Shown here: positions 6,365-15,816 of the stretch, piece after piece | How the letters are laid out: every line of letters starts with the position of its first letter | How positions within the stretch are numbered: the first letter of the stretch is position 1 | DNA from: a virus | Lineage: Duplodnaviria > Heunggongvirae > Uroviricota > Caudoviricetes | Strand: one strand, 5' to 3' | Length of the DNA stretch: 19,760 nt | Virus record (IMG/VR): IMGVR_UViG_2698536651_000010 | Span: 1-19,760 of that record | Position numbers and translations under genes: made by a program | The notes under the pieces: generated by a model | Told to the model about the DNA's origin: nothing | What the model saw: only the letters and a program-made list of their open reading frames with translations | Database searches by the model: none

Positions 6365-6395
6365 AAAAAGGCCATTAAATGGCCTTTTTGTTTTT
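6365..6395. terminator. Bidirectional rho-independent terminator shared by convergent Q and retron RT
   Basis: AAAAAGGCCATTAAATGGCCTTTTTGTTTTT: a GC stem flanked by an A-run and a T-run. It overlaps the last codons of the RT. Confidence 0.7.
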
Positions 6396-7349
6396 AGGAA
6401 AAAGAACACTTAGATCAACCCCATATGTTTCAGACATTTTATTTGAGAAAGTCATCAATTTTCTATAGTTTTTCTTGTCTACACTTTTAACAAACGCAAT
6501 AAGTCCTTTAACATGTTCGAAATCAGAATTTCTTTTTACCGCCAGATAATGGATCTTACTTCTAATTTCGCGATAACGTATTCTGCCAACTCCAACATTA
6601 TCAATAGATAAAACGAGCCCAGTAACCTCCTTCCTTGCTTTGGGGCCATGAATCGCAACTTTATTATAATTAACCTTCAAAGATTCACTTGGTATTATAG
6701 AGCATACAAATGACTTAGCTTTAAGTATTTTTTTTAAAGATTGAGCAGATAAAGTCAAATCATCGGCATATCGAGTAAATACGATCCCCTTACTACCTGC
6801 ATATCCATGTATTCTATAATCTAATTTAGTTAAAACAAGATTCGCAATCTTTGGAGAAGATGGTGCACCTTGAGGTAGCGAACCATTAAATGAACACAAT
6901 CTTGCTAAAGCATTAGAAATAGTAGAGTTATACCCCAGAGAATGAAAAACAGTATAGATTTTCTCTATCAGAATAGTATTAAAACAATCTTCTAAATCAA
7001 TATTTAATACATAGTTAGCTCCTACATGTGGGCTGGCATTATTTAATATTGATTGCCCTTTTTCAAAGCCTTTGGAAAATGGGGATGAATGTAACTTATC
7101 AAGGATGTTTCTTAACACCCAAGCTTGCAATGCCTTCAGCTCACGTGATGGCTGTGAAATGATGCGGGATCTCTTGCCATCTCTTTTTGGCAACGAATAA
7201 ACCTTATAGTATTTGTCAGCACGATAAATGTACAACCGGAGTATGTCTACTGATAAACGCATTTCTCTAGACATATCCTCTAAAGAGGACATAACAGGCA
7301 ATCCAAGATTGCGTAAGCGAAAAACCTGAGATGGTGTTGCGGAAGTCAT
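6375..7349 (-). CDS. Retron-type reverse transcriptase
   Basis: 324 aa. RT motifs: NIDLEDCF (motif A), LPQGAPSSPKIANL (motif B), RYADDLTLS (YADD catalytic motif C). Also the retron-associated NAxxH (NASPH) and VTG (EVTGLVL) motifs. ATG sits 2 nt after the a2 repeat, whose AAGGG acts as the SD. Region is AT-rich. Confidence 0.9.
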   Translation of the reverse strand: MTSATPSQVFRLRNLGLPVMSSLEDMSREMRLSVDILRLYIYRADKYYKVYSLPKRDGKRSRIISQPSRELKALQAWVLRNILDKLHSSPFSKGFEKGQSILNNASPHVGANYVLNIDLEDCFNTILIEKIYTVFHSLGYNSTISNALARLCSFNGSLPQGAPSSPKIANLVLTKLDYRIHGYAGSKGIVFTRYADDLTLSAQSLKKILKAKSFVCSIIPSESLKVNYNKVAIHGPKARKEVTGLVLSIDNVGVGRIRYREIRSKIHYLAVKRNSDFEHVKGLIAFVKSVDKKNYRKLMTFSNKMSETYGVDLSVLFPKNKKAI

Positions 7350-7351
7350 GA

Positions 7352-7510
7352 GCGCACCCTTACGTCATAAAAATCAGATTCCGAAGTGAAAGGAGAACAT
7401 CGGGAGATGTTCTCCTTTCAATGAGGGAACTGGTAAAACTTCAGATTGTATGTAGGACAGCGAAACACTGTCCAGTGAACTTCCGGAGAAGCCACTCGCT
7501 AAGGGTGCGC
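7352..7510 (-). ncRNA. Retron msr-msd non-coding RNA flanked by a1/a2 inverted repeats
   Basis: 11-bp inverted repeats GCGCACCCTTA (7352-7362) and TAAGGGTGCGC (7500-7510). Perfect 15-bp stem with 4-nt loop at 7387-7420 (msd-like hairpin). Short hairpin GGACAG/CTGTCC at 7455-7473 (msr-like). A G follows a1 in the transcript. Confidence 0.8.
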
Positions 7511-8404
7511 AAAACGCATCCTATCATAGTGGAGTATTGTTTTACCACGATTTTCGAAGTTCATCATATCCAGTCGTAGATTGTCCAAAGCCTTTCGATC
7601 AAAATGCTCAAGAACGTATTGCATACCAATTTCTGTAATATGGTATCCTTGAACTGAACGTCTAATTATTGACTCTTTAATCAAGCTTGAAATAACAGAC
7701 TTAACGATAATTTCACAAAGAATAGCATCTTTCTTAGTCACCAAATGTAATAGCTCATATAGAAGTATATTATCTATACCATCCATCAAATATATACACG
7801 GCAGTATAAAACGCCGAGCGTGAAGAATATTATCTATTGAGTGATTAACTGGGTTATTTTTTTTGATGTCATTAATACTTTTTATAATTCTATTATAAAA
7901 AGCTTTACCTGTACTCAAGCTTTCAAGAGTCGACAAATCTCCTCGCAATACTGCACCGCTATTAGCACGCCGAAGCAGTTTTATAGGCCCATAATTAAGA
8001 AAGCTTTTTTTAAGTTTGAATTTGTCATCCTGAAGACATATCATTTTTTTGCACAGTTTTTCATTATTTGAAAATGCGCCCAATTCAGCGAAAGAACCTG
8101 GGCTTTCAGGAATAATAATAATAACATCGACTGAATCAGCTAAAATATTCTCCAAACTTAAAAGACTATGCTGACCTTGTCCATACAAAAGCTCATCAAA
8201 CAACTCCTCAGGATAGAATATTTCTATTTTGGGATGTGTTTCCAACACTCTTTTAACTTTATTTCTACAAAAAAACGGATCATTCAAATCGCCCCCGCAA
8301 AGGAAAACAGTAACTTTATTTTTATTTTTCTGTTGAAAAAGCCGACTTTTAATTAAATTTGCCAGATTTTGCTTCTGCAACTCCGGAATAGTTTTCTTTT
8401 TCAT
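7499..8404 (-). CDS. Putative retron effector: N-terminal NDT-like (nucleoside deoxyribosyltransferase/LOG-like) domain plus C-terminal probable winged-helix DNA-binding domain
   Basis: About 301 aa from ATG 8402-8404 (track ORF starts at GTG 8410). Glycine-rich strand VTVFLCGG and IIIPESPGSFAELGAF resemble the NDT/LOG-type active-site region. Stop TAG (7499-7501) lies inside the a1 repeat. Very AT-rich. Confidence 0.7.
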   Translation of the reverse strand: MKKKTIPELQKQNLANLIKSRLFQQKNKNKVTVFLCGGDLNDPFFCRNKVKRVLETHPKIEIFYPEELFDELLYGQGQHSLLSLENILADSVDVIIIIPESPGSFAELGAFSNNEKLCKKMICLQDDKFKLKKSFLNYGPIKLLRRANSGAVLRGDLSTLESLSTGKAFYNRIIKSINDIKKNNPVNHSIDNILHARRFILPCIYLMDGIDNILLYELLHLVTKKDAILCEIIVKSVISSLIKESIIRRSVQGYHITEIGMQYVLEHFDRKALDNLRLDMMNFENRGKTILHYDRMRFAHP

Positions 8405-8918
8405 ATCCACTTTTCCTCAGAATGATCCCATCTTTTATACAACATTCAAATCTGAGTTTCCACCCGCTGCGCGCGCTCGTATCCCCGCCACGCCTGCCCG
8501 CTTTATGTAGTGGTTTTCATGCACCTGCATGACATAAGCAAAAGCACGCCAGTTCTGGCTGACTTCAGCAAAAACGATCCTCAAACGATCATGCGATCTC
8601 ATGCGTCATAGTCATGCGCTGCCAAGGGAAGCGTAAATCCGTATCTGAATGACTGCTGAAAAGCGAATCATACGGGTTTACAAAGATGAAAGTTCGCTGT
8701 GAGCGAGAAGCGAACCTTGCAACTTTGTTGGCACAGTTTTAACACCAATTTTTTGAGGATAGCTAGAAAACTTGTGGCATAAAGGATCAGTTTCCCGATC
8801 GAACTTTTTATCAAGAAGGGCTCATAGCAATCGCCAGAAGAAGTGATGTTAAAGTATTGAGCTCGGCGTTAAGATTAAATAAATTACAGACTAATCCAAT
8901 GTTTTGTGGAAGGATAAG

Positions 8919-9962
8919 ATGGCAGTCAAGCGCGCATACTACGGTAACGATAGTGACCGAGACTACTTAGAGCGGATATTTCAGTCAGCTAACATTAACT
9001 TTCTCATCGGATCAGGTGCATCCCTCCCAGCGATTAAAGTACTGGGGACAATCGAAACGGATCTTCAGCAGCTTATTAATGATGAACAGGAAGATGAATA
9101 CTTAAGGATGGCAGCTGACTTTTTGTCAGATGTTTGGCTACCTCATGAATGCATGTTGAAGCGCGGCTACGGCACCCCCTTCGCACCTCAGGTGATCACC
9201 GATTTGGAATGTACCCGTGCAAATTATGATGCATTTATGTCTTCACTGGAAAAGATACTGACCCGCCGCCGAACTGGCCTACTTCCGAGGCGTATTAACG
9301 TTTTTACAACTAATTATGATTTATTCATCGAAGAAGCTGCCACACGTAATAACAATATTCTTTTTAATGATGGATTCAATAGAAGAGCAAGTATTTTGGG
9401 AGATGCGGAATTTGATGCGGGTAGCTTTAATCATTCTGTAAGTGCAACCGGAAATCTGTATAATTATAAAGTTGAGCTTCCTACTGTTAACCTTATAAAA
9501 CTTCATGGTTCGCTCTCTTGGCAGCATTCTAAAGGGAAAATCATTTATCGTATTGCAGATATTAAGCCGCTTGACTTTCCCACCCTAGCCGAAATGAAAG
9601 GATGGGTACTTGCTCATGCACTTATTCTTCCACGTAAGGAGAAGTTTAAAGAGACTCTACTACAGAACGTTTATTATGATTTACTGAGAACCTATTCCAA
9701 CGAGCTTGATAAAGAAGCAACTTTACTAATTGTCTTTGGGTTCTCATTTGCTGATGAGCACATTGAAACGATAACTAAAAAAGCCCTGCGCAACGCCACC
9801 CTGAAGCTACTGATCTTTGCTTTCGATGAGGCCAGTGTTAACGGCTTTATGGAGAAATTTCGGGATTACTCAAACGTAGAGATTATTTATCGGCCGGGAA
9901 GAAATGTTGATTTTCCGGTAATGAATAACATTATCACGTGCTATCTGGGAGGCTCGAGATGA
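8919..9962 (+). CDS. SIR2-family (sirtuin-like) NADase of a SIR2-HerA defence pair
   Basis: ATG 8919 with AAGGA SD (track ORF starts at TTG 8904). Motifs FLIGSGAS (NAD-binding glycine loop), VFTTNYD, KLHGS (catalytic His), LIVFGFSFAD. Stop overlaps the HerA start (ATGA). Confidence 0.85.
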   Translation: MAVKRAYYGNDSDRDYLERIFQSANINFLIGSGASLPAIKVLGTIETDLQQLINDEQEDEYLRMAADFLSDVWLPHECMLKRGYGTPFAPQVITDLECTRANYDAFMSSLEKILTRRRTGLLPRRINVFTTNYDLFIEEAATRNNNILFNDGFNRRASILGDAEFDAGSFNHSVSATGNLYNYKVELPTVNLIKLHGSLSWQHSKGKIIYRIADIKPLDFPTLAEMKGWVLAHALILPRKEKFKETLLQNVYYDLLRTYSNELDKEATLLIVFGFSFADEHIETITKKALRNATLKLLIFAFDEASVNGFMEKFRDYSNVEIIYRPGRNVDFPVMNNIITCYLGGSR

Positions 9963-11818
9963 GCAGGCATTTTACTGAAGAGGAAGCGGTGCTCCGTATA
10001 GGCGAAGTCTGTGAGGTTTCTGGACGCGCTGTGACAATTTTGGTCGATAAAAACAAAAATCTCAGTGACTTGTTTTATCAGGGAAAAGTTCTAAGAAATG
10101 TATCAGTGGGTAGCTTCATTGAGATCAAAAAAGGTTTCATGAGCCTGATCGGCAAGGTTGAAGCGGAACGAATCATTGAGGAAAAACATCTCGCTGGGAG
10201 CGGCAGTGATGCCTGGCGATATCGGCGATACCTGACCTCTACTCTTACGGGTTACATTGATCGTACTGGTTGCTTCATTGGTGGTTCGCGTGAACTACCT
10301 CTCATCGGCAATGAAGTCTTCGTGGTAACTGAAGAGATGATACAGACGGTTCATCAGATAGCTGATGCAGACGAAACTGTAATGAGGTTTACTCGTACAG
10401 ATCTTGAAGATATTGAAATTGCACTACCAATCAATGGTCTTATTAATTCCCACATTGCCATTTTCGGTAATACAGGCAGCGGAAAGTCAAATACCCTAGC
10501 CGCGCTATACAAAGCAGGTATTGCCCAAGTTAAACATATTCTCGGCAACCACTTTAGTGAAAGATGCAAATTTATTCTATTCGACTTTAATGGAGAATAT
10601 ACTGCCCCACGCTGTATTACTGACGAGAAGACGGTTTATAATCTCAACACGCACCATGCAAATGGTGACAAACTTCCTCTACCCAGAGAGGTTCTACTTG
10701 AGCATGATATGCTCTCAGTTCTAACCGATGCAACAGACAAAACACAGAAACCTTTCCTGAAGAGAGTTCTTGAGTTTCGCAAGAAAGTGATGACCGCTGA
10801 CAATCCTCTTGAGTTTATGCGCAATATCCTGAAGAAAAAAGTCAGACAAAATCTCTTTAGTAGCGACAAACCCAAATGCGATACTATAAATCAGTTTCTT
10901 AGCCCAATTTTCAAAGATGACCCAGAACTTATATCTGATCTTGAGTATCATTCAACTGCATATAAATGGAAATTGAGGGGTGGTAGTATTTTCAATACAG
11001 AAGCTGATACTGAGCGCTCCTATCTATTCAGTCTTGCAAGCAATTTTTCATTTAAAACTGATATGATTGAAGAACTGTTGGACTTTATGTACTTACAGTT
11101 AATACAGGAATATTTATCTAACAAGTCTAACCCTGAACATATTTCACCAGTTATAAATAGAATGAGTGCTAACCGTAAAGATATAGCCAAAATATTTGAT
11201 ACTTCCGGACAGTCTGATTTTTGGGGTGAACATAATTTCACGGTTGTGAATCTAAATATGGTTAATATAACCATGAAAAAAACGCTTCCTCTTTTGATAG
11301 CCAAGTGGGCTTACAATATGAAGAAAATGTCTACAGAGAAATCTACACTGCACATCATTATAGATGAAGCCCACAATATTTTGTCTAATACTTCTTTTCG
11401 GGAAACGGAAAGTTGGAGAGATTATCGTCTGGAAACTTTTGAGGAAATCATAAAGGAGGGGAGAAAATTTGGAGTTTTTATCACAATTTCCAGTCAACGC
11501 CCTAATGATATATCGTCGACAATCATATCCCAAGCACACAATTATTTTATTCATCGCCTTATTAATCAGAATGATCTGTACGCAATTGAAAAATCAGTAT
11601 CATATATAGATCGACTGACTGAAGAGTCGATTCCAACGCTATCTACAGGAACCTGTATTTTTAGTGGTATCGTCTGCCCCATGCCGCTCAAATTAAGGGT
11701 AGCTGAACTTCCAATTGAAGAAAAACCTAAGAGTAATACTATTTCCTTCAACGATTTAATACCTGAGAGGCTGGGAGAGGATGACCAGAGCGACTACGTA
11801 ATAACCAGCCCTCACTAA
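9959..11818 (+). CDS. HerA-like (FtsK/HerA superfamily) ATPase, partner of SIR2
   Basis: ATG 9959 with GGGAGG SD (track starts at GTG 9938). Walker A GNTGSGKS and Walker B/DEAH-like HIIIDEAH. About 620 aa, typical of HerA partners in SIR2-HerA systems. Confidence 0.85.
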   Translation: MSRHFTEEEAVLRIGEVCEVSGRAVTILVDKNKNLSDLFYQGKVLRNVSVGSFIEIKKGFMSLIGKVEAERIIEEKHLAGSGSDAWRYRRYLTSTLTGYIDRTGCFIGGSRELPLIGNEVFVVTEEMIQTVHQIADADETVMRFTRTDLEDIEIALPINGLINSHIAIFGNTGSGKSNTLAALYKAGIAQVKHILGNHFSERCKFILFDFNGEYTAPRCITDEKTVYNLNTHHANGDKLPLPREVLLEHDMLSVLTDATDKTQKPFLKRVLEFRKKVMTADNPLEFMRNILKKKVRQNLFSSDKPKCDTINQFLSPIFKDDPELISDLEYHSTAYKWKLRGGSIFNTEADTERSYLFSLASNFSFKTDMIEELLDFMYLQLIQEYLSNKSNPEHISPVINRMSANRKDIAKIFDTSGQSDFWGEHNFTVVNLNMVNITMKKTLPLLIAKWAYNMKKMSTEKSTLHIIIDEAHNILSNTSFRETESWRDYRLETFEEIIKEGRKFGVFITISSQRPNDISSTIISQAHNYFIHRLINQNDLYAIEKSVSYIDRLTEESIPTLSTGTCIFSGIVCPMPLKLRVAELPIEEKPKSNTISFNDLIPERLGEDDQSDYVITSPH

Positions 11819-12547: not shown

Positions 12548-14962
12548 TTAATACAGATCCCGCCACTTATCATCTTCCTGCAAACGCTGGTTCCGATAGA
12601 AGATACGCAGGCCTGCTCCTGACGGAATACTGCCGCCGCGAAGGAGTAAATCGACCTCTTTCTCGCTACTATCAAATCCTCTGGACTTCAGCTCATAGAC
12701 GAGCTGCTGTCGCTGATGGTCTGTAATTCGCTGTTTGTAGTCTTTACGCCGTTTCGGTTTAACCAAGCATAACCTTGCTGCCAGTTCCCGGCGCTCTTTT
12801 TTGCTCATACTGTGCAGGTAATCGTGCAACTCCTTGTCATCCATGCGGGTGATATCCGTTCTGGTATCCCCATCAGCTGATTTGTCTTTCCCTTGTTGAT
12901 TCAAATTTTCAGCAAGGGGACAGTTATTGCCACGAGTCCAAGGGGCGCAAGCGCCCTGGTCGGCTGCCGCCTCCTGAACGTCAACGGCCTTACGAACTAT
13001 TTTCCACTTCACTGCATGAGTGCAGATCTTGCCCTCTGCAATGGGTGACCAGATGCCATAAATACGAATACCGTGATCACCATAGGCGGTCGGCTCTTCG
13101 TTGATTTCATAAGCGGTTCTGATCAAGTGATATTTGCGGGGAACCAGTACGCCGCCCTGCTTCATGATGTAGGTGGCAAAACAACCAGCATCAGCAGCAG
13201 CCAGGATGGCATCAAGGCGCGGGTTATCCAGTACCGGCGCACCTGCTTTTTTGTCACCCTGTTGCCTTGCCGCCTGACCAGCCAGCAATCGCAGTTCACG
13301 GTAAGCCTGACGCCCCGGAATGCCAAAGAAGCGGAATTGCTGAACACGATGCAGAGACGCCCAGGCATTAACGTATTCAGCGTTATCACGCAGGGATTTA
13401 CCCGTTTCCTTACTGATCTCGCCAGCCAGACCACGCCCGTCAATATTCTTACTGATATATTTCGCAATGTAGCTTGTCGGCGTTCCTTTGCGCGGGTTTA
13501 TCAGCTCAGACTTAAAGCGTGGCCCCGTGTTATTGCCCAGCTCCTCGCGGTCTTCACGGATGGCAAACTTACGCAACAATGCAGTAATGGCGCGGCGGTC
13601 TTTTTTGCGCATGAAACACAACAGGTGCCAGTGAACTGTGCCGTCATGATGCGGCTCAGCCACCCGCACGCCATACCAGCGCAACCCGGCTTTGTGCATA
13701 GCCTTACGAAATGCAGCAAACATGCCGACCAGATAATCGCTGCTTTGTCTTACTGTCGCGTTGGTCCAGGTCGGGTTTGGCCTACCGTTATTTAGCGTGG
13801 AATGGAAACGTGACGGACAGGTGATGGTGTAGAAAACGGCGCAGTCACCACGCATTTCCGCGATAAGCTCCAGGCCTTTAACACAGGTCATCATCTCGTT
13901 GCGGCGATGCGCCGGGTTGCTGCTGCTGGCGTTTACCACATCCTCCATGTTCAGCGTGTCGCCGTCTTCGTTCACCAGTTCATGAGAACGGAAAAACTCC
14001 AGCGACTTACGGCGCTGCTCACGTTTATGCATCACGGCTTCATAGCTGACATAGGGAGATGCTTTTTTGCTGACCAGGCAGACAGCACGCAACTGCTCTT
14101 CCCGCCATTCGCAACGCATCTTCCATAATTTCCGATACCACCAGTCGGCGCACAGCATACGCGCCAGCGACCCCGGAATGAGTTCATAGGGCACGGGTTT
14201 ACGGCGGTTTCTTTTCCGGCGGAGTTGCTCAAACGCAGGCGGTATGACATCCAGTCGCAGGGTTTCTGCTGCCACCTTTTCCCATGTCTTGCGGATTTCT
14301 TCTGGCTTAACGTCATCGGTGGCATACAAATCACCACAAGCGGCATCAAGGCACATGCTCATATGCGCAGCGACAAGGGTAGACAGGCGCTTCACCTGAT
14401 CCTGACTCATTTCAGGCAGGATAAGCAGGCCATCCAGCCCTTCATGGCTTGCCATAAAGCGAAAAGAAGTGGATAGCTGACAGTCGCGGACATGCTCCAG
14501 TCGTTCCAGACATGGCTTAATCGTCTCACGCAAATAGCGGGAATAAGCCTTTGGCCTGCCCAGGCTGCTGAAATATTCAATACGTTGCATCAGCGGCTTG
14601 CTGATATGGGAAGGCTGGGCATTGACGTCAGCCAGAATGACCATGTCTGGATTAAAACGCTGCTGCTCATGCGCCAGCTTTGCCCGGCTAATGAGCTTAT
14701 CCTGCTCCATTTCGCGCTGGACAGGATCACGGGATTCATTAAAGAAATAACGCTCCCAGACCTGATCACTCAGTGCCTCGCGGCGCAGTTGTTCCTGCTC
14801 GTTATCGGCAGCGTACAGAGTGATCAGGTTTGAAAGTGCAGAAACCGGCGCAACTTCCGCCGGGTCCTGATAAGGGTTAATAGCCTTTTTCGGGCTGTTC
14901 CATGAGAATGCTGCGGCGACCTCGTTAAAGCCGCTGCAGTTGTTCATATCATCATGGCTCAT
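12548..14962 (-). CDS. A: Replication initiation endonuclease (P2 gpA / 186 RepA family, HUH rolling-circle type)
   Basis: 804 aa. HUH-type motif ...[11 protein letters not shown].... Large size and position at the end of the early operon fit the family. ATGA overlap with dam upstream. Confidence 0.9.
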
Positions 14963-15816
14963 GCACGCACTCCGTATACGGCTGAACTATCCACGCCACG
15001 CGAAGGATCAAATCCCACCCAGCAGCGCGGCCCGGAAACAGCGATGATTTCAGTTGCAGATTTACTCTCACCAGCTGCTACGCCGATGCTGCGTTTTGCC
15101 TTGATGTAGTGGTGAGTAAAATTGCGATACAGCGAACGGATCAGGGATGTGTCACTGTTAGAAACAATGACCGGATGTCCTTCTGATGACCGATGTTCAA
15201 GCACAGATGCCAGGCGATACTGGTCATCTTCAGTGAAGCCATCAGTGTGATAGCCGGAAAACGTACCGTCATAAGGCGGATCGCAATACACAACATCCCC
15301 CGCGTGCAACATCGCCAGCGTTTCATCGAAGCTGGCGCAGATAAACGTTGCCCGCTGGGCTTTCTCTGCAAATGCGCGAATTTCTTTTTCAGGGAAATAC
15401 GGATTTTTATAATTACCGTAGGGAATGTTGAAATGCCCGCTCTTGTTATAGCGACATAACCCACGGTAACCATGTCGATTGAGATACAGGAAATATACCG
15501 CTTTCATGAAATTAGTAATTTCAGTTGAGTAGTTAAACTCCTGCCTTATGTTGTAATAAGCCACCTCCCTGTTTGCTTCCTCAAATAAAACTCTGGCGCG
15601 AGATATAAATAATTCACAATCAGCGGCAACCTTTTTATAGAGGTTGATTAAATCAGGATTAATATCCGCAACCAGATAGCTGGGGTAATCCGTTTCCATC
15701 ATCACTGCACAGGAACCCGCGAAAGGTTCAACCAGTCGCAGGCCAGCAGGAAGGTGTTTTTTCAGTTCTGGCATAATGGCGGTTTTATTTCCCGCCCATT
15801 TCAGGATGGTGCTCAT
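14959..15816 (-). CDS. dam: DNA adenine methyltransferase (Dam-like, N6-adenine)
   Basis: 285 aa. N-terminal SAM-binding motif LKWAGNK and catalytic DPPY. Translationally coupled to both neighbours. Confidence 0.9.

What the first reader, a model, noticed from the sequence alone, without database searches (positions are those of the whole stretch)
7352..7510. Retron ncRNA with a perfect 15-bp msd hairpin and the RT ribosome-binding site inside a2
The a1/a2 pair is separated by about 137 nt. The msd-like hairpin at 7387-7420 has 15 consecutive Watson-Crick pairs and a GGGA loop. The msr side has a short GGACAG/CTGTCC hairpin. The RT ATG lies 2 nt after a2, so the a2 sequence AAGGG doubles as its Shine-Dalgarno, implying that a1/a2 pairing could gate RT translation. 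The effector stop codon sits inside a1.
Basis: seen in the sequence. Interest (0 to 1): 0.55.

Follow-up and report, generated by a model that had tools for sequence, protein, structure and literature searches.

The report
Ec86-like retron non-coding RNA gene

Summary
On the minus strand, 7510-7352 encodes an msr-msd ncRNA. It has a perfect 11-bp a1/a2 stem, two msr hairpins and a long msd hairpin with 15 perfect pairs (MFE z = -7.4).

The ncRNA is 69% identical to Ec86 (Retron-Eco1) of E. coli BL21. The gene order is the same: N-glycosidase/NDT-like effector, then ncRNA, then RT. The position is also the same, in the cos-proximal defence hotspot of a P2-like prophage. RT and effector match the solved Ec86 proteins over their full length (E 6e-124 and 5e-92).

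In 18 distinct homologues, 28 of 41 base pairs show compensatory changes (94.8% of cells paired, against about 40% in slid controls).

The "special" features are traits of the clade, Ec86 included. The effector stop codon holds the predicted branching G in 14 of 19 loci. The RT ATG lies 0-9 nt after a2, and a2 carries the only SD-like motif. That a1/a2 pairing gates RT translation stays a plausible but untested inference.

Two real differences from Ec86: the msd lacks the Dcm site (CCWGG) that triggers Ec86, and three effector lysines that contact the msDNA are replaced. This is a new member of a known kind, of low to moderate interest.

The parts
7500..7510 (-). a1 (5' arm of the ncRNA closing stem), GCGCACCCUUA. 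It also encodes the last residues (A-H-P) of the effector.
   Evidence: Perfect 11-bp inverted repeat with a2. 7 of the 13 pairs of this helix have compensatory changes.
7499..7499 (-). Predicted branching (priming) guanosine. It is also the G of the effector's TAG stop codon (7501-7499).
   Evidence: An invariant UAGC motif aligns with the Ec86 a1-proximal UUAGC. The stop is this TAG in 14 of 19 loci. That this G is the branch point in Ec86 is from my memory of Lim and Maas 1989 and was not verified here.
7474..7496 (-). msr stem-loop 1
   Evidence: MFE fold. The base of this hairpin is helix 2 of the consensus, with 3 of 5 pairs compensatory.
7455..7473 (-). msr stem-loop 2 (GGACAGUG UUU CGCUGUCC)
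   Evidence: Helix 3 has 99.3% of cells paired and 4 of 8 pairs compensatory.
7364..7445 (-). Predicted msd (reverse-transcription template). The msDNA would be the plus-strand sequence 7364->7445, about 81-82 nt.
   Evidence: Alignment to Ec86. The Ec86 msd limits (L002 3085-3170) are from my memory. PMC12673091 says the Ec86 msdDNA is 85 nt rather than 86 nt.
7375..7432 (-). msd long hairpin. Its core, 7387-7401/7406-7420, is 15 perfect pairs.
   Evidence: Helices 4 and 5 have 14 of 15 pairs with compensatory changes.
7352..7362 (-). a2 (3' arm), UAAGGGUGCGC. It contains the only SD-like motif upstream of the RT start (UAAGG/AAGGG, 7362-7357).
   Evidence: Best anti-SD duplex is -5.0 kcal/mol.
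6375..7349 (-). Retron reverse transcriptase, 324 aa, YADD motif present. ATG at 7349-7347.
   Evidence: PADLOC RT_II-A 4.6e-123. PDB Ec86 RT 7v9u_A 5.6e-124, aligned from residue 3. 58% identity to the Ec86 RT.
7499..8404 (-). Effector: NDT-like N-glycosidase plus a C-terminal DNA-binding lobe, 301 aa from ATG 8404.
   Evidence: PADLOC NDT_II-A 2.6e-97. NCBIfam NF038232. PDB 7v9x_C 5.1e-92. 50% identity to the Ec86 effector.
8434..8462 (-). Candidate operon promoter: TGGAAA, 17-nt spacer, TATAAA, upstream of the effector. Inferred.
   Evidence: The positionally conserved TATAAA box in the window, Ec86, L085 and L163 is visible in the alignment. The TTGGAN/TGGAAA -35 hexamer and 17-nt spacer were read by hand from the ungapped sequences. 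The consensus scan did not list it because it requires T at position 6 of the -10 hexamer.

Best explanation
Window 7510-7352 (minus strand) is the msr-msd non-coding RNA gene of a type II-A3 retron, a paralogue-level relative of Retron-Eco1 (Ec86). It sits in a three-part operon: effector (8404-7499), then ncRNA, then RT (7349-6375). The operon lies in the cos-proximal defence hotspot of a P2-like prophage of E. coli.

Shown here:
- the folded architecture (an a1/a2 stem closing two msr hairpins and a long msd hairpin), which is conserved and covaries across homologues;
- full-length homology of both proteins to the solved Ec86 proteins.

Inferred by homology to Ec86:
- The RT binds the msr hairpins and the a1:a2 stem, and primes from the 2'-OH of G7499.
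- It copies the msd from 7364 towards 7445, and RNase H1 removes the template. The product is a branched msDNA of about 81-82 nt whose DNA stem-loop has 15 perfect pairs and a GGGA loop.
- RT-msDNA binds the N-glycosidase effector and holds it inactive, in filaments.
- A phage factor that modifies or removes the msDNA releases the effector. The effector then hydrolyses NAD(P)+ or nucleoside derivatives and aborts the infection.

Secondary, weaker inference:
- The only SD-like motif for the RT lies inside a2, and the effector ORF ends at the 3' edge of a1. So the same stem that licenses reverse transcription would mask RT translation.
- A ribosome finishing the effector ORF would have to melt that stem.
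- This would couple RT synthesis to effector synthesis. It would also sort transcripts into two roles, mRNA or template.
For: - Fold: MFE z = -7.36. Perfect 11-bp a1/a2 stem and 15-bp hairpin.
- Typing: RT_II-A 4.6e-123 and NDT_II-A 2.6e-97. NCBIfam retron St85-family RT and effector.
- Homology to Ec86: 69% ncRNA identity over 94% of the query. Same gene order and same position between the DinI-like gene and the portal gene. Base-level alignment with invariant GCGCACCCTTAGCGAG and GACGTAAGGGTGCGC.
- Comparative set: 18 distinct ncRNAs, with RT identity to the window of about 44-68%.
- Covariation: 41 consensus pairs, 28 with compensatory double changes. 94.8% of cells are paired, against 39-43% when partners are slid. 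0 of 500 shuffles reach any measure.
- Covariance model: the window scores 151 bits, though it was itself one of the 18 sequences the model was built from. The same ncRNA type lies directly upstream of RTs in Chloroflexota, Lachnospiraceae and Opitutaceae (Verrucomicrobiota).
- Solved structures: effector matches 7v9x_C at 5.1e-92, RT matches 7v9u_A at 5.6e-124 from residue 3, YADD is kept. The Ec86 effector's D69 and E106 equivalents are kept (with residues named).
- Mechanism of Eco1 from PMC12673091 and bioRxiv 10.1101/2023.08.16.553469. P2 hotspot between gpA and gpQ from PMC9122126.
- For the translational sub-claim: the effector stop is the branch-G TAG in 14 of 19 loci and within -15 to +7 nt in the other five. 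The RT ATG is 0-9 nt after the a2 stem in all. No other purine-rich motif lies between a2 and the ATG. Firmicutes-type members carry a strong GAGGTG inside a2. Blocking a1 costs about 19 kcal/mol of fold energy. A candidate promoter is conserved upstream of the effector and none is evident just before a1.
Against: - No msDNA, branch point or RNA ends were measured. The msd limits and the branching G rest on alignment to Ec86 and on my memory of the Ec86 literature.
- Rfam gave no hit at gathering or permissive thresholds.
- The Ec86 trigger logic cannot be transferred. The msd has no CCWGG, and effector residues equivalent to Ec86 K149, K177 and K185 are G, N and D.
- For the translational sub-claim, UUAG.../...GUAAGG next to the priming site may be conserved for RT recognition rather than as an SD.
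- The Aeromonas member has AGAGA instead of AAGGG.
- Predicted SD/start accessibility rises only from 0.24 to 0.33 when a1 is blocked, because a2 refolds locally.
- An internal promoter in the 3' end of the effector gene was not excluded.
- I found no paper that tests or mentions this arrangement.
Confidence: 0.92

Rival explanations
1. It is a retron ncRNA, but the SD-in-a2 and stop-in-a1 arrangement has no regulatory role. The UUAG/GUAAGG sequences would be conserved only because the RT needs them at the priming site. The tight packing would be simple genome compaction on a phage. The RT would be translated at a low constitutive level regardless of a1/a2.
For: - The a1-proximal CCYUUAG is conserved even in the five loci where the effector stops elsewhere, so a coding constraint is not the cause.
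- L169 lacks an SD-like a2 yet keeps the architecture.
- The accessibility change is small.
- Adding an optimised RBS in front of the Eco1 RT raises editing in engineered constructs. This shows only that native translation is limiting (bioRxiv 10.1101/2023.07.17.549397).
Against: - The a2-to-ATG distance stays within 0-9 nt in the 19 close loci and 3-15 nt in distant phyla, with no alternative SD.
- Firmicutes-type members have a strong GAGGTG inside a2. This is hard to explain by a priming function alone.
Confidence: 0.55
2. The hairpins are an intergenic transcription terminator or attenuator between two ordinary prophage genes, not a retron RNA.
For: A long perfect G+C-containing hairpin lies between two ORFs, with a U-rich tract (UGAUUUUUAU) about 15 nt downstream.
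Against: - The terminator scan did not call it, because the U-run is not adjacent to the stem.
- The flanking genes are a retron RT and its cognate effector.
- The RNA is homologous to Ec86.
- Covariation supports the long-range a1/a2 stem and the msr hairpins, which a terminator would not need.
Confidence: 0.02
3. It is a decayed or inactive retron remnant that no longer makes msDNA or defends.
For: It is rare, present in 4 of 5,426 complete E. coli genomes. It lacks the Dcm motif that Ec86 needs for defence against phage K42.
Against: - Both ORFs are full length with catalytic motifs intact.
- All ncRNA helices are intact, and the msd stem is more perfect than in Ec86.
- The four genomic copies listed are 98.8-100% identical across the retron, and the IMG/VR viral contigs L083 and L084 encode an identical RT and have an identical ncRNA region.
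- The 99%-identity protein cluster has 71 member sequences.
Confidence: 0.05

Closest known systems
Retron-Eco1 (Ec86) of E. coli B/BL21, type II-A3
   Same: - Operon order effector, ncRNA, RT.
- Same insertion point in a P2-like prophage, between cos/DinI-like gene and the portal gene.
- ncRNA 69% identical, with identical a1/a2 core, UUAGCGAG branch region and GACGUAAGGG priming region.
- RT 58% and effector 50% identical, both full length.
- The effector stop is the branch-G TAG in both.
   Different: - The msd is 4 nt shorter (about 82 versus 86 nt by alignment).
- Its stem has 15 perfect pairs, against 10 perfect pairs plus internal loops in Ec86.
- It has no CCWGG Dcm motif.
- msr stem-loop 1 is shorter and different.
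- The gap from a2 to the ATG is 2 nt rather than 6 nt, so the AAGGG-to-ATG spacing is 7 nt rather than 12 nt.
- The DSL-contacting lysines K149, K177 and K185 are not conserved.
Retron-Sen2 (St85) / Eco3 (Ec73), type II-A1
   Same: NDT-like effector of the same broad family. NCBI names both proteins 'retron St85 family'.
   Different: - Mestre et al. place St85 in RT clade 1 with a different ncRNA class (IA/IIA1). Ec86 is in clade 9 with ncRNA class IIA3 (PMC7736814).
- The best PADLOC models and the PDB matches here are the Ec86-type ones.
- 'St85 family' is therefore an annotation label, not the closest relative.
Type VI retron hybrid RNA (Retron-Vpa2), where RNA structure represses translation of a retron protein
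   Same: This is a precedent that a structured retron transcript can hold a coding sequence translationally silent (bioRxiv 10.1101/2025.10.22.683967). The same logic is proposed here for the RT start inside or next to a2.
   Different: - There, the repressed gene is the toxic effector, and msDNA synthesis derepresses it.
- Here, the masked gene would be the RT. Unmasking would come from ribosomes ending the effector ORF on a1.
- Nothing has been tested for type II-A3.

Membership tests
Retron (msr-msd ncRNA + RT) | A retron-clade reverse transcriptase with a YADD active site encoded immediately downstream of the ncRNA | tested here: met
   PADLOC RT_II-A 4.6e-123. PDB Ec86 RT 5.6e-124, with 'tryaddltl' aligned.
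Retron (msr-msd ncRNA + RT) | a1/a2 inverted repeats closing the ncRNA | tested here: met
   11-bp perfect repeat, 137 nt apart. Compensatory changes in 7 of the 13 pairs of this helix.
Retron (msr-msd ncRNA + RT) | A conserved guanosine at the 3' end of a1 that serves as the 2'-5' branch and priming site | tested here: inconclusive
   An invariant UAGC follows a1 in all 18 sequences and aligns to Ec86. The branch itself cannot be shown by computation.
Retron (msr-msd ncRNA + RT) | msr hairpins plus a long msd hairpin supported by covariation | tested here: met
   28 of 41 pairs are compensatory. 94.8% of cells are paired against about 40% when slid.
Retron (msr-msd ncRNA + RT) | Production of multicopy single-stranded DNA | not testable with these tools
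   Needs msDNA extraction and sequencing.
Type II-A3 retron (Eco1-like) | An NDT-like N-glycosidase effector with a C-terminal DNA-binding lobe, encoded next to the ncRNA-RT cassette | tested here: met
   NDT_II-A 2.6e-97. NF038232. 7v9x_C 5.1e-92 over the full length, with D69 and E106 equivalents kept. PF28093 effector upstream in all 10 genomic homologue loci.
Type II-A3 retron (Eco1-like) | ncRNA of the Ec86 structural class | tested here: met
   Alignment to Ec86. The covariance model built from the clade scores the window at 151 bits, though the window was part of the training alignment. It also finds distant type II-A3 loci.
Ec86-type trigger sensing | A Dcm motif (CCWGG) in the msDNA stem-loop, needed for defence in Ec86 | tested here: not met
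   No CCWGG anywhere in the ncRNA, whereas Ec86, L085, L092, L101 and L162 have it. The requirement in Ec86 is from bioRxiv 10.1101/2023.08.16.553469.
Rfam-curated RNA families | A match to any curated covariance model | tested here: not met
   No hit at gathering thresholds over the whole window. Only chance-level hits at E up to 10 in 7250-7650. This says that Rfam lacks a model that reaches this retron class, not that the RNA is unreal.
Translational control by long-range SD sequestration and ribosome-mediated unmasking | The SD and start of the downstream gene lie inside or next to a helix whose other strand lies under the ribosome that terminates the upstream ORF | tested here: met
   Geometry only. 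AAGGG is in a2, the ATG is 2 nt after a2, and the effector stop is at the 3' edge of a1. This is conserved.
Translational control by long-range SD sequestration and ribosome-mediated unmasking | A measurable effect of the pairing on translation | tested here: inconclusive
   Thermodynamic model: the stem is worth about 19 kcal/mol. SD/start accessibility rises only from 0.24 to 0.33 when a1 is blocked. An experiment is needed.

The most novel reading that the evidence does not exclude
In type II-A3 retrons, Ec86 included, the a1/a2 stem would be a bifunctional toggle on one polycistronic transcript.

- Stem formed: the transcript is a reverse-transcription template, and the RT's own SD and start are masked. 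RT bound to a1:a2 may reinforce the masking, giving autorepression.
- Stem melted: a ribosome reading the effector ORF to its stop codon, whose G is the branching G, melts a1. This exposes a2 and licenses RT translation.

The result would be a fixed stoichiometry between toxin (effector) and antitoxin-maker (RT). Each RNA would be partitioned between the mRNA role and the template role.
Probability: 0.3. Interest if true: 0.5.

Novelty: new member of a known kind. Interest (0 to 1): 0.3.

Why it matters
- **A natural variant of the main retron tool.** Ec86 is the workhorse of retron genome editing and the best-understood retron in phage defence. This locus gives a natural variant with the same scaffold and a cleaner 15-bp msDNA stem.
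- **A natural experiment on triggering.** It has no Dcm site, and the effector's DNA-contact surface differs. It can show which parts of the msDNA set trigger specificity.
- **A testable idea about balance.** The conserved overlap of the effector stop, the branching G, a1/a2 and the RT SD/start suggests how these toxin-antitoxin-like systems keep RT and effector in balance. If that overlap proved functional, it would also matter for engineering retron expression.
- **Otherwise routine.** The locus is an ordinary, correctly recognised retron.

Tried and rejected
- **Rfam.** Gathering thresholds over the whole window and permissive thresholds on 7250-7650 gave nothing relevant.
- **Genome-contig scan with the RT alignment.** Some of those loci later proved useful for the covariance model. 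Close relatives came instead from viral contigs and exact-protein look-ups. One look-up, P0002, was not on record.
- **P2 cohesive end.** A search for the sequence as I recalled it (GGCGAGGCGGGGAAAGCAC) gave no match at up to 3 mismatches. Reading the sequence showed a 186-like GGCGTGGCGGGGA... instead.
- **Sigma-70 scan.** There is no promoter call just upstream of a1. The one strong call (TGGACA-18-TACAAT, 7474-7445) lies inside conserved msr stem-loop 2. Total calls were below the shuffle expectation (7 against 9.1), so I treat it as chance.
- **SD accessibility.** The calculation with and without a1 blocked was inconclusive.
- **Literature.** Searches for any discussion of an SD in a2 or of RT translational control in type II retrons found none. 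Accession searches for the proteins found no paper. The Cell Reports paper on Dcm was not held, so I used its preprint.
- **Terminator reading of the hairpin.** Rejected.

Full report

Yes. The features below are read on the minus strand.

- GCGCACCCUUA (7510-7500) and UAAGGGUGCGC (7362-7352) form a perfect 11-bp inverted repeat with 137 nt between the arms.
- Inside the repeat, 7420-7406 pairs with 7401-7387 in 15 consecutive Watson-Crick pairs. The loop is UCCC in the RNA, which is GGGA on the plus strand, the sense of the predicted msDNA.
- The GGACAG/CUGUCC hairpin exists and extends to 8 bp (7473-7455).
- The 176-nt transcript folds at -73.7 kcal/mol against -42.4 +/- 4.3 for shuffles. 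The z-score is -7.36 and 0 of 200 shuffles fold as well.
- The RT ATG is at 7349, 2 nt after a2. AAGGG lies 7 nt upstream of it.
- The upstream ORF's TAG is 7501-7499, so it straddles the last two bases of a1 and the unpaired G that follows.

**2. What is it?**

The downstream ORF (6375-7349, 324 aa) is a retron RT. It scores 4.6e-123 against PADLOC RT_II-A. The upstream ORF is a type II-A NDT-like effector, scoring 2.6e-97. NCBIfam names them the 'retron St85 family' RT and effector.

The window is 100% identical to E. coli VG888-46E9. Only 4 of 5,426 complete E. coli genomes carry this retron.

The surrounding genes are those of a P2-like prophage: terminase, portal, capsid, gpA replication endonuclease and Dam.

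A sensitive DNA search with the ncRNA alone found 48 further genomes at 69% identity over 94% of the query. All 37 of these shown in the listing, which include the E. coli B/BL21 lineage, were annotated with the retron St85 family effector over the match. In BL21 the match is the Ec86 (Retron-Eco1) locus. The gene order there is the same: effector (307 aa), ncRNA, RT (320 aa). The position is also the same, between a DinI-like gene and the portal gene.

The pairwise alignment shows identical a1 and a2 cores, an identical UUAGCGAG after a1 and an identical GACGUAAGGG before a2.

Both proteins match the solved Ec86 chains over their full length.

| Protein | Best PDB match | E-value | Identity to Ec86 protein |
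|---|---|---|---|
| Effector | 7v9x_C | 5.1e-92 | 50% |
| RT | 7v9u_A | 5.6e-124 | 58% |

The RT alignment starts at residue 3. This confirms that ATG 7349, and not a downstream Met, is the true start.

**3. Comparative test of the RNA**

I collected 18 distinct ncRNAs. They are the window, Ec86, seven IMG/VR prophage variants, and nine genomic loci. The genomic loci come from Erwinia, Yersinia, Serratia, Rheinheimera, Shewanella, Vibrio, Aeromonas, Cellvibrio and Vreelandella. Their RT identity to the window is about 44-68%.

RNAalifold recovers the a1/a2 stem, two msr hairpins and the long msd hairpin. 28 of the 41 pairs show compensatory double changes.

The explicit controls are as follows.

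| Measure | Observed structure | 3' partners slid by 1-3 columns |
|---|---|---|
| Cells paired | 94.8% | 39-43% |
| Pairs with compensatory double changes | 28 | 10-13 |

In the shuffle control, 0 of 500 shuffles reached any of the five measures.

Examples within a1/a2 are UGUGCA/UGCACA (L086), GCACAC/GUGUGC (L099) and CGUCUCUA/UAGAGACG (Aeromonas).

A covariance model built from this alignment scores the window at 151 bits (E 1.7e-37). The window was one of the 18 training sequences, so this score is partly by construction. The model also detects the same RNA type directly upstream of RTs in Chloroflexota, Lachnospiraceae and Opitutaceae (Verrucomicrobiota) contigs. This fits Mestre et al.'s 'IIA3 (Proteobacteria/Firmicutes)' ncRNA class (PMC7736814).

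Rfam has no model that reaches this RNA.

**4. Are the 'special' features special?**

No. They are traits of the clade.

- The effector stop codon is the TAG that contains the putative branching G in 14 of 19 loci, Ec86 included. In the other five it lies within -15 to +7 nt.
- The RT ATG lies 0-9 nt beyond the a2 stem in all 19 loci, and 3-15 nt beyond it in the distant phyla.
- a2 carries the only SD-like motif before the ATG. It is UAAGG(G) or UAAAGG in most members, and a strong GAGGUG in the Firmicutes-type members. It is absent only in the Aeromonas member.
- The window differs from Ec86 only in degree. Its gap is 2 nt instead of 6 nt, so AAGGG is 7 nt rather than 12 nt from the ATG. L098, L162 and L165 are similar.

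**5. How it most likely works**

By homology to Eco1, the mechanism would run in these steps.

1. The RT binds the msr hairpins and the a1:a2 stem. That stem is ordered and contacts the RT in the Eco1 structure (PMC12673091).
2. The RT primes on the 2'-OH of G7499 and copies the msd from 7364 to about 7445. Host RNase H1 removes the template and helps set termination (PMC8989520, title and abstract).
3. The resulting RT-msDNA binds the N-glycosidase effector and holds it inactive in filaments.
4. A phage factor that alters the msDNA activates NAD(P)+ or nucleoside hydrolysis and abortive infection (PMC12673091; PMC12640716; bioRxiv 10.1101/2023.08.16.553469).

The RNA architecture and the protein homology are shown here. 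The branch point, the msDNA ends, filament formation and defence are inferred.

The msd limits come from alignment to the Ec86 msd as I remember it (L002 3085-3170, 86 nt). The structural papers give 85 nt. The prediction here is therefore about 81-82 nt.

**6. Real differences from Ec86**

- Ec86 senses phage Dcm through a CCTGG motif in the msDNA stem-loop. Mutating that motif while keeping the hairpin abolished defence.
- The window's ncRNA has no CCWGG and no GATC. Ec86, L085, L092, L101 and L162 have CCAGG at the homologous place.
- Three of the Ec86 effector lysines whose K-to-A substitution abolished defence (K149, K177, K185) align to G, N and D here. K29 and the catalytic-pocket residues D69 and E106 are kept.
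- The sensor surface and its msDNA partner have therefore co-diverged. I infer that the trigger is probably different.

**7. Translation-gating idea**

The evidence in favour is geometric and comparative, as set out in section 4.

- A positionally conserved TATAAA box sits upstream of the effector ATG in the window, Ec86, L085 and L163. Read by hand from the ungapped sequences, a TTGGAN/TGGAAA hexamer lies 17 nt upstream of it.
- No promoter-like site is evident just before a1.
- The Ec86 work expresses 'effector-ncRNA-rrt' from its native promoter.

If there is one transcript, a ribosome ending the effector ORF must occupy a1. That frees a2 with the RT's SD and start. Conversely, a folded a1/a2, which reverse transcription needs, buries them.

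The evidence against is as follows.

- The conserved UUAG/GUAAGG may exist for priming rather than as an SD.
- The thermodynamic estimate is weak. The stem is worth about 19 kcal/mol, but mean unpaired probability over positions -14 to +3 rises only from 0.24 to 0.33, because a2 refolds locally.
- No experiment exists, and I found no paper that discusses the arrangement.

A precedent that retron RNA structure can silence a coding sequence exists for type VI retrons (bioRxiv 10.1101/2025.10.22.683967). I put this reading at about 0.3.

**8. Context**

The retron lies between the portal gene and a cos-like sequence, GGCGTGGCGGGGATACGAG at 8494-8476 on the minus strand. A SIR2-HerA system at 8904-11818 lies on the other side of cos, before the gpA region. 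The two systems therefore occupy the cos-proximal gpA-gpQ hotspot of P2-like phages described by Rousset et al. (PMC9122126).

**9. Verdict**

The element is a new, uncharacterised member of a well-known kind, the type II-A3 Eco1-like retrons. Its highlighted peculiarities are family-wide.

Interest is low to moderate, for two reasons. The conserved overlap of stop codon, branching G, SD and start is a testable and apparently undiscussed regulatory idea. The loss of the Dcm motif, together with the changed effector contacts, makes the locus a useful comparator for Ec86.

Noticed in passing
window 8904-11818 (+): A complete SIR2 + HerA anti-phage system (PADLOC SIR2 6.3e-211, HerA 6.1e-267) sits about 500 nt from the retron, divergently oriented. 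It lies on the other side of the cos-like site, so two defence systems share the same P2 hotspot.
   Followed up: partly
window 8468-8900, cos-like core 8476-8494 (-): A block at or near 100% identity in the listed records, part of more than 1,200 E. coli genomes with some match to the query. It contains GGCGTGGCGGGGATACGAG, which resembles the 186/P2 cohesive end as I recall it. The retron thus lies in the short cos-portal gap. In three of the four retron-bearing genomes the match ends near 8620.
   Followed up: partly
window 7364-7445 and 14959-15816: The predicted msd has neither a Dcm (CCWGG) nor a Dam (GATC) site. The same prophage encodes its own Dam methylase (TIGR00571, 1.5e-96). Several relatives carry CCAGG or GATC at the homologous stem position. 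This suggests that trigger specificity varies within the clade.
   Followed up: partly
window 7499-8404 (effector residues aligned to Ec86 K149, K177, K185): Three lysines that contact the msDNA stem-loop and are individually needed for defence in Ec86 are G, N and D here. K29, D69 and E106 are conserved.
   Followed up: partly
L002 3190 vs 3265; L169 1801 vs 1846: Annotation inconsistencies. RefSeq starts the BL21 Ec86 RT 25 codons downstream of the start used in the solved structures. The Aeromonas RT (345 aa) is called from a start inside the msd, which hides the ncRNA.
   Followed up: partly
window 7431-7439 / 7539-7547: A perfect 9-bp inverted repeat lies between the 3' end of the effector ORF and the start of the msd (I4). 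It is not conserved in Ec86, and about 0.1 such repeats are expected by chance, so it is probably fortuitous.
   Followed up: partly
window 7445-7474 (-): A good sigma-70-like match (TGGACA-18-TACAAT, 10 of 12) lies inside msr stem-loop 2. The total number of promoter-like hits in the region is below the shuffle expectation, so it is probably chance.
   Followed up: no
L166 3130-4410; L165 2806-3729: In Rheinheimera a second RVT_1 gene (426 aa) lies about 360 nt downstream of the retron RT. In Serratia a 307-aa gene with a faint SIR2_2 hit follows the RT directly. These may be additional linked defence genes.
   Followed up: no
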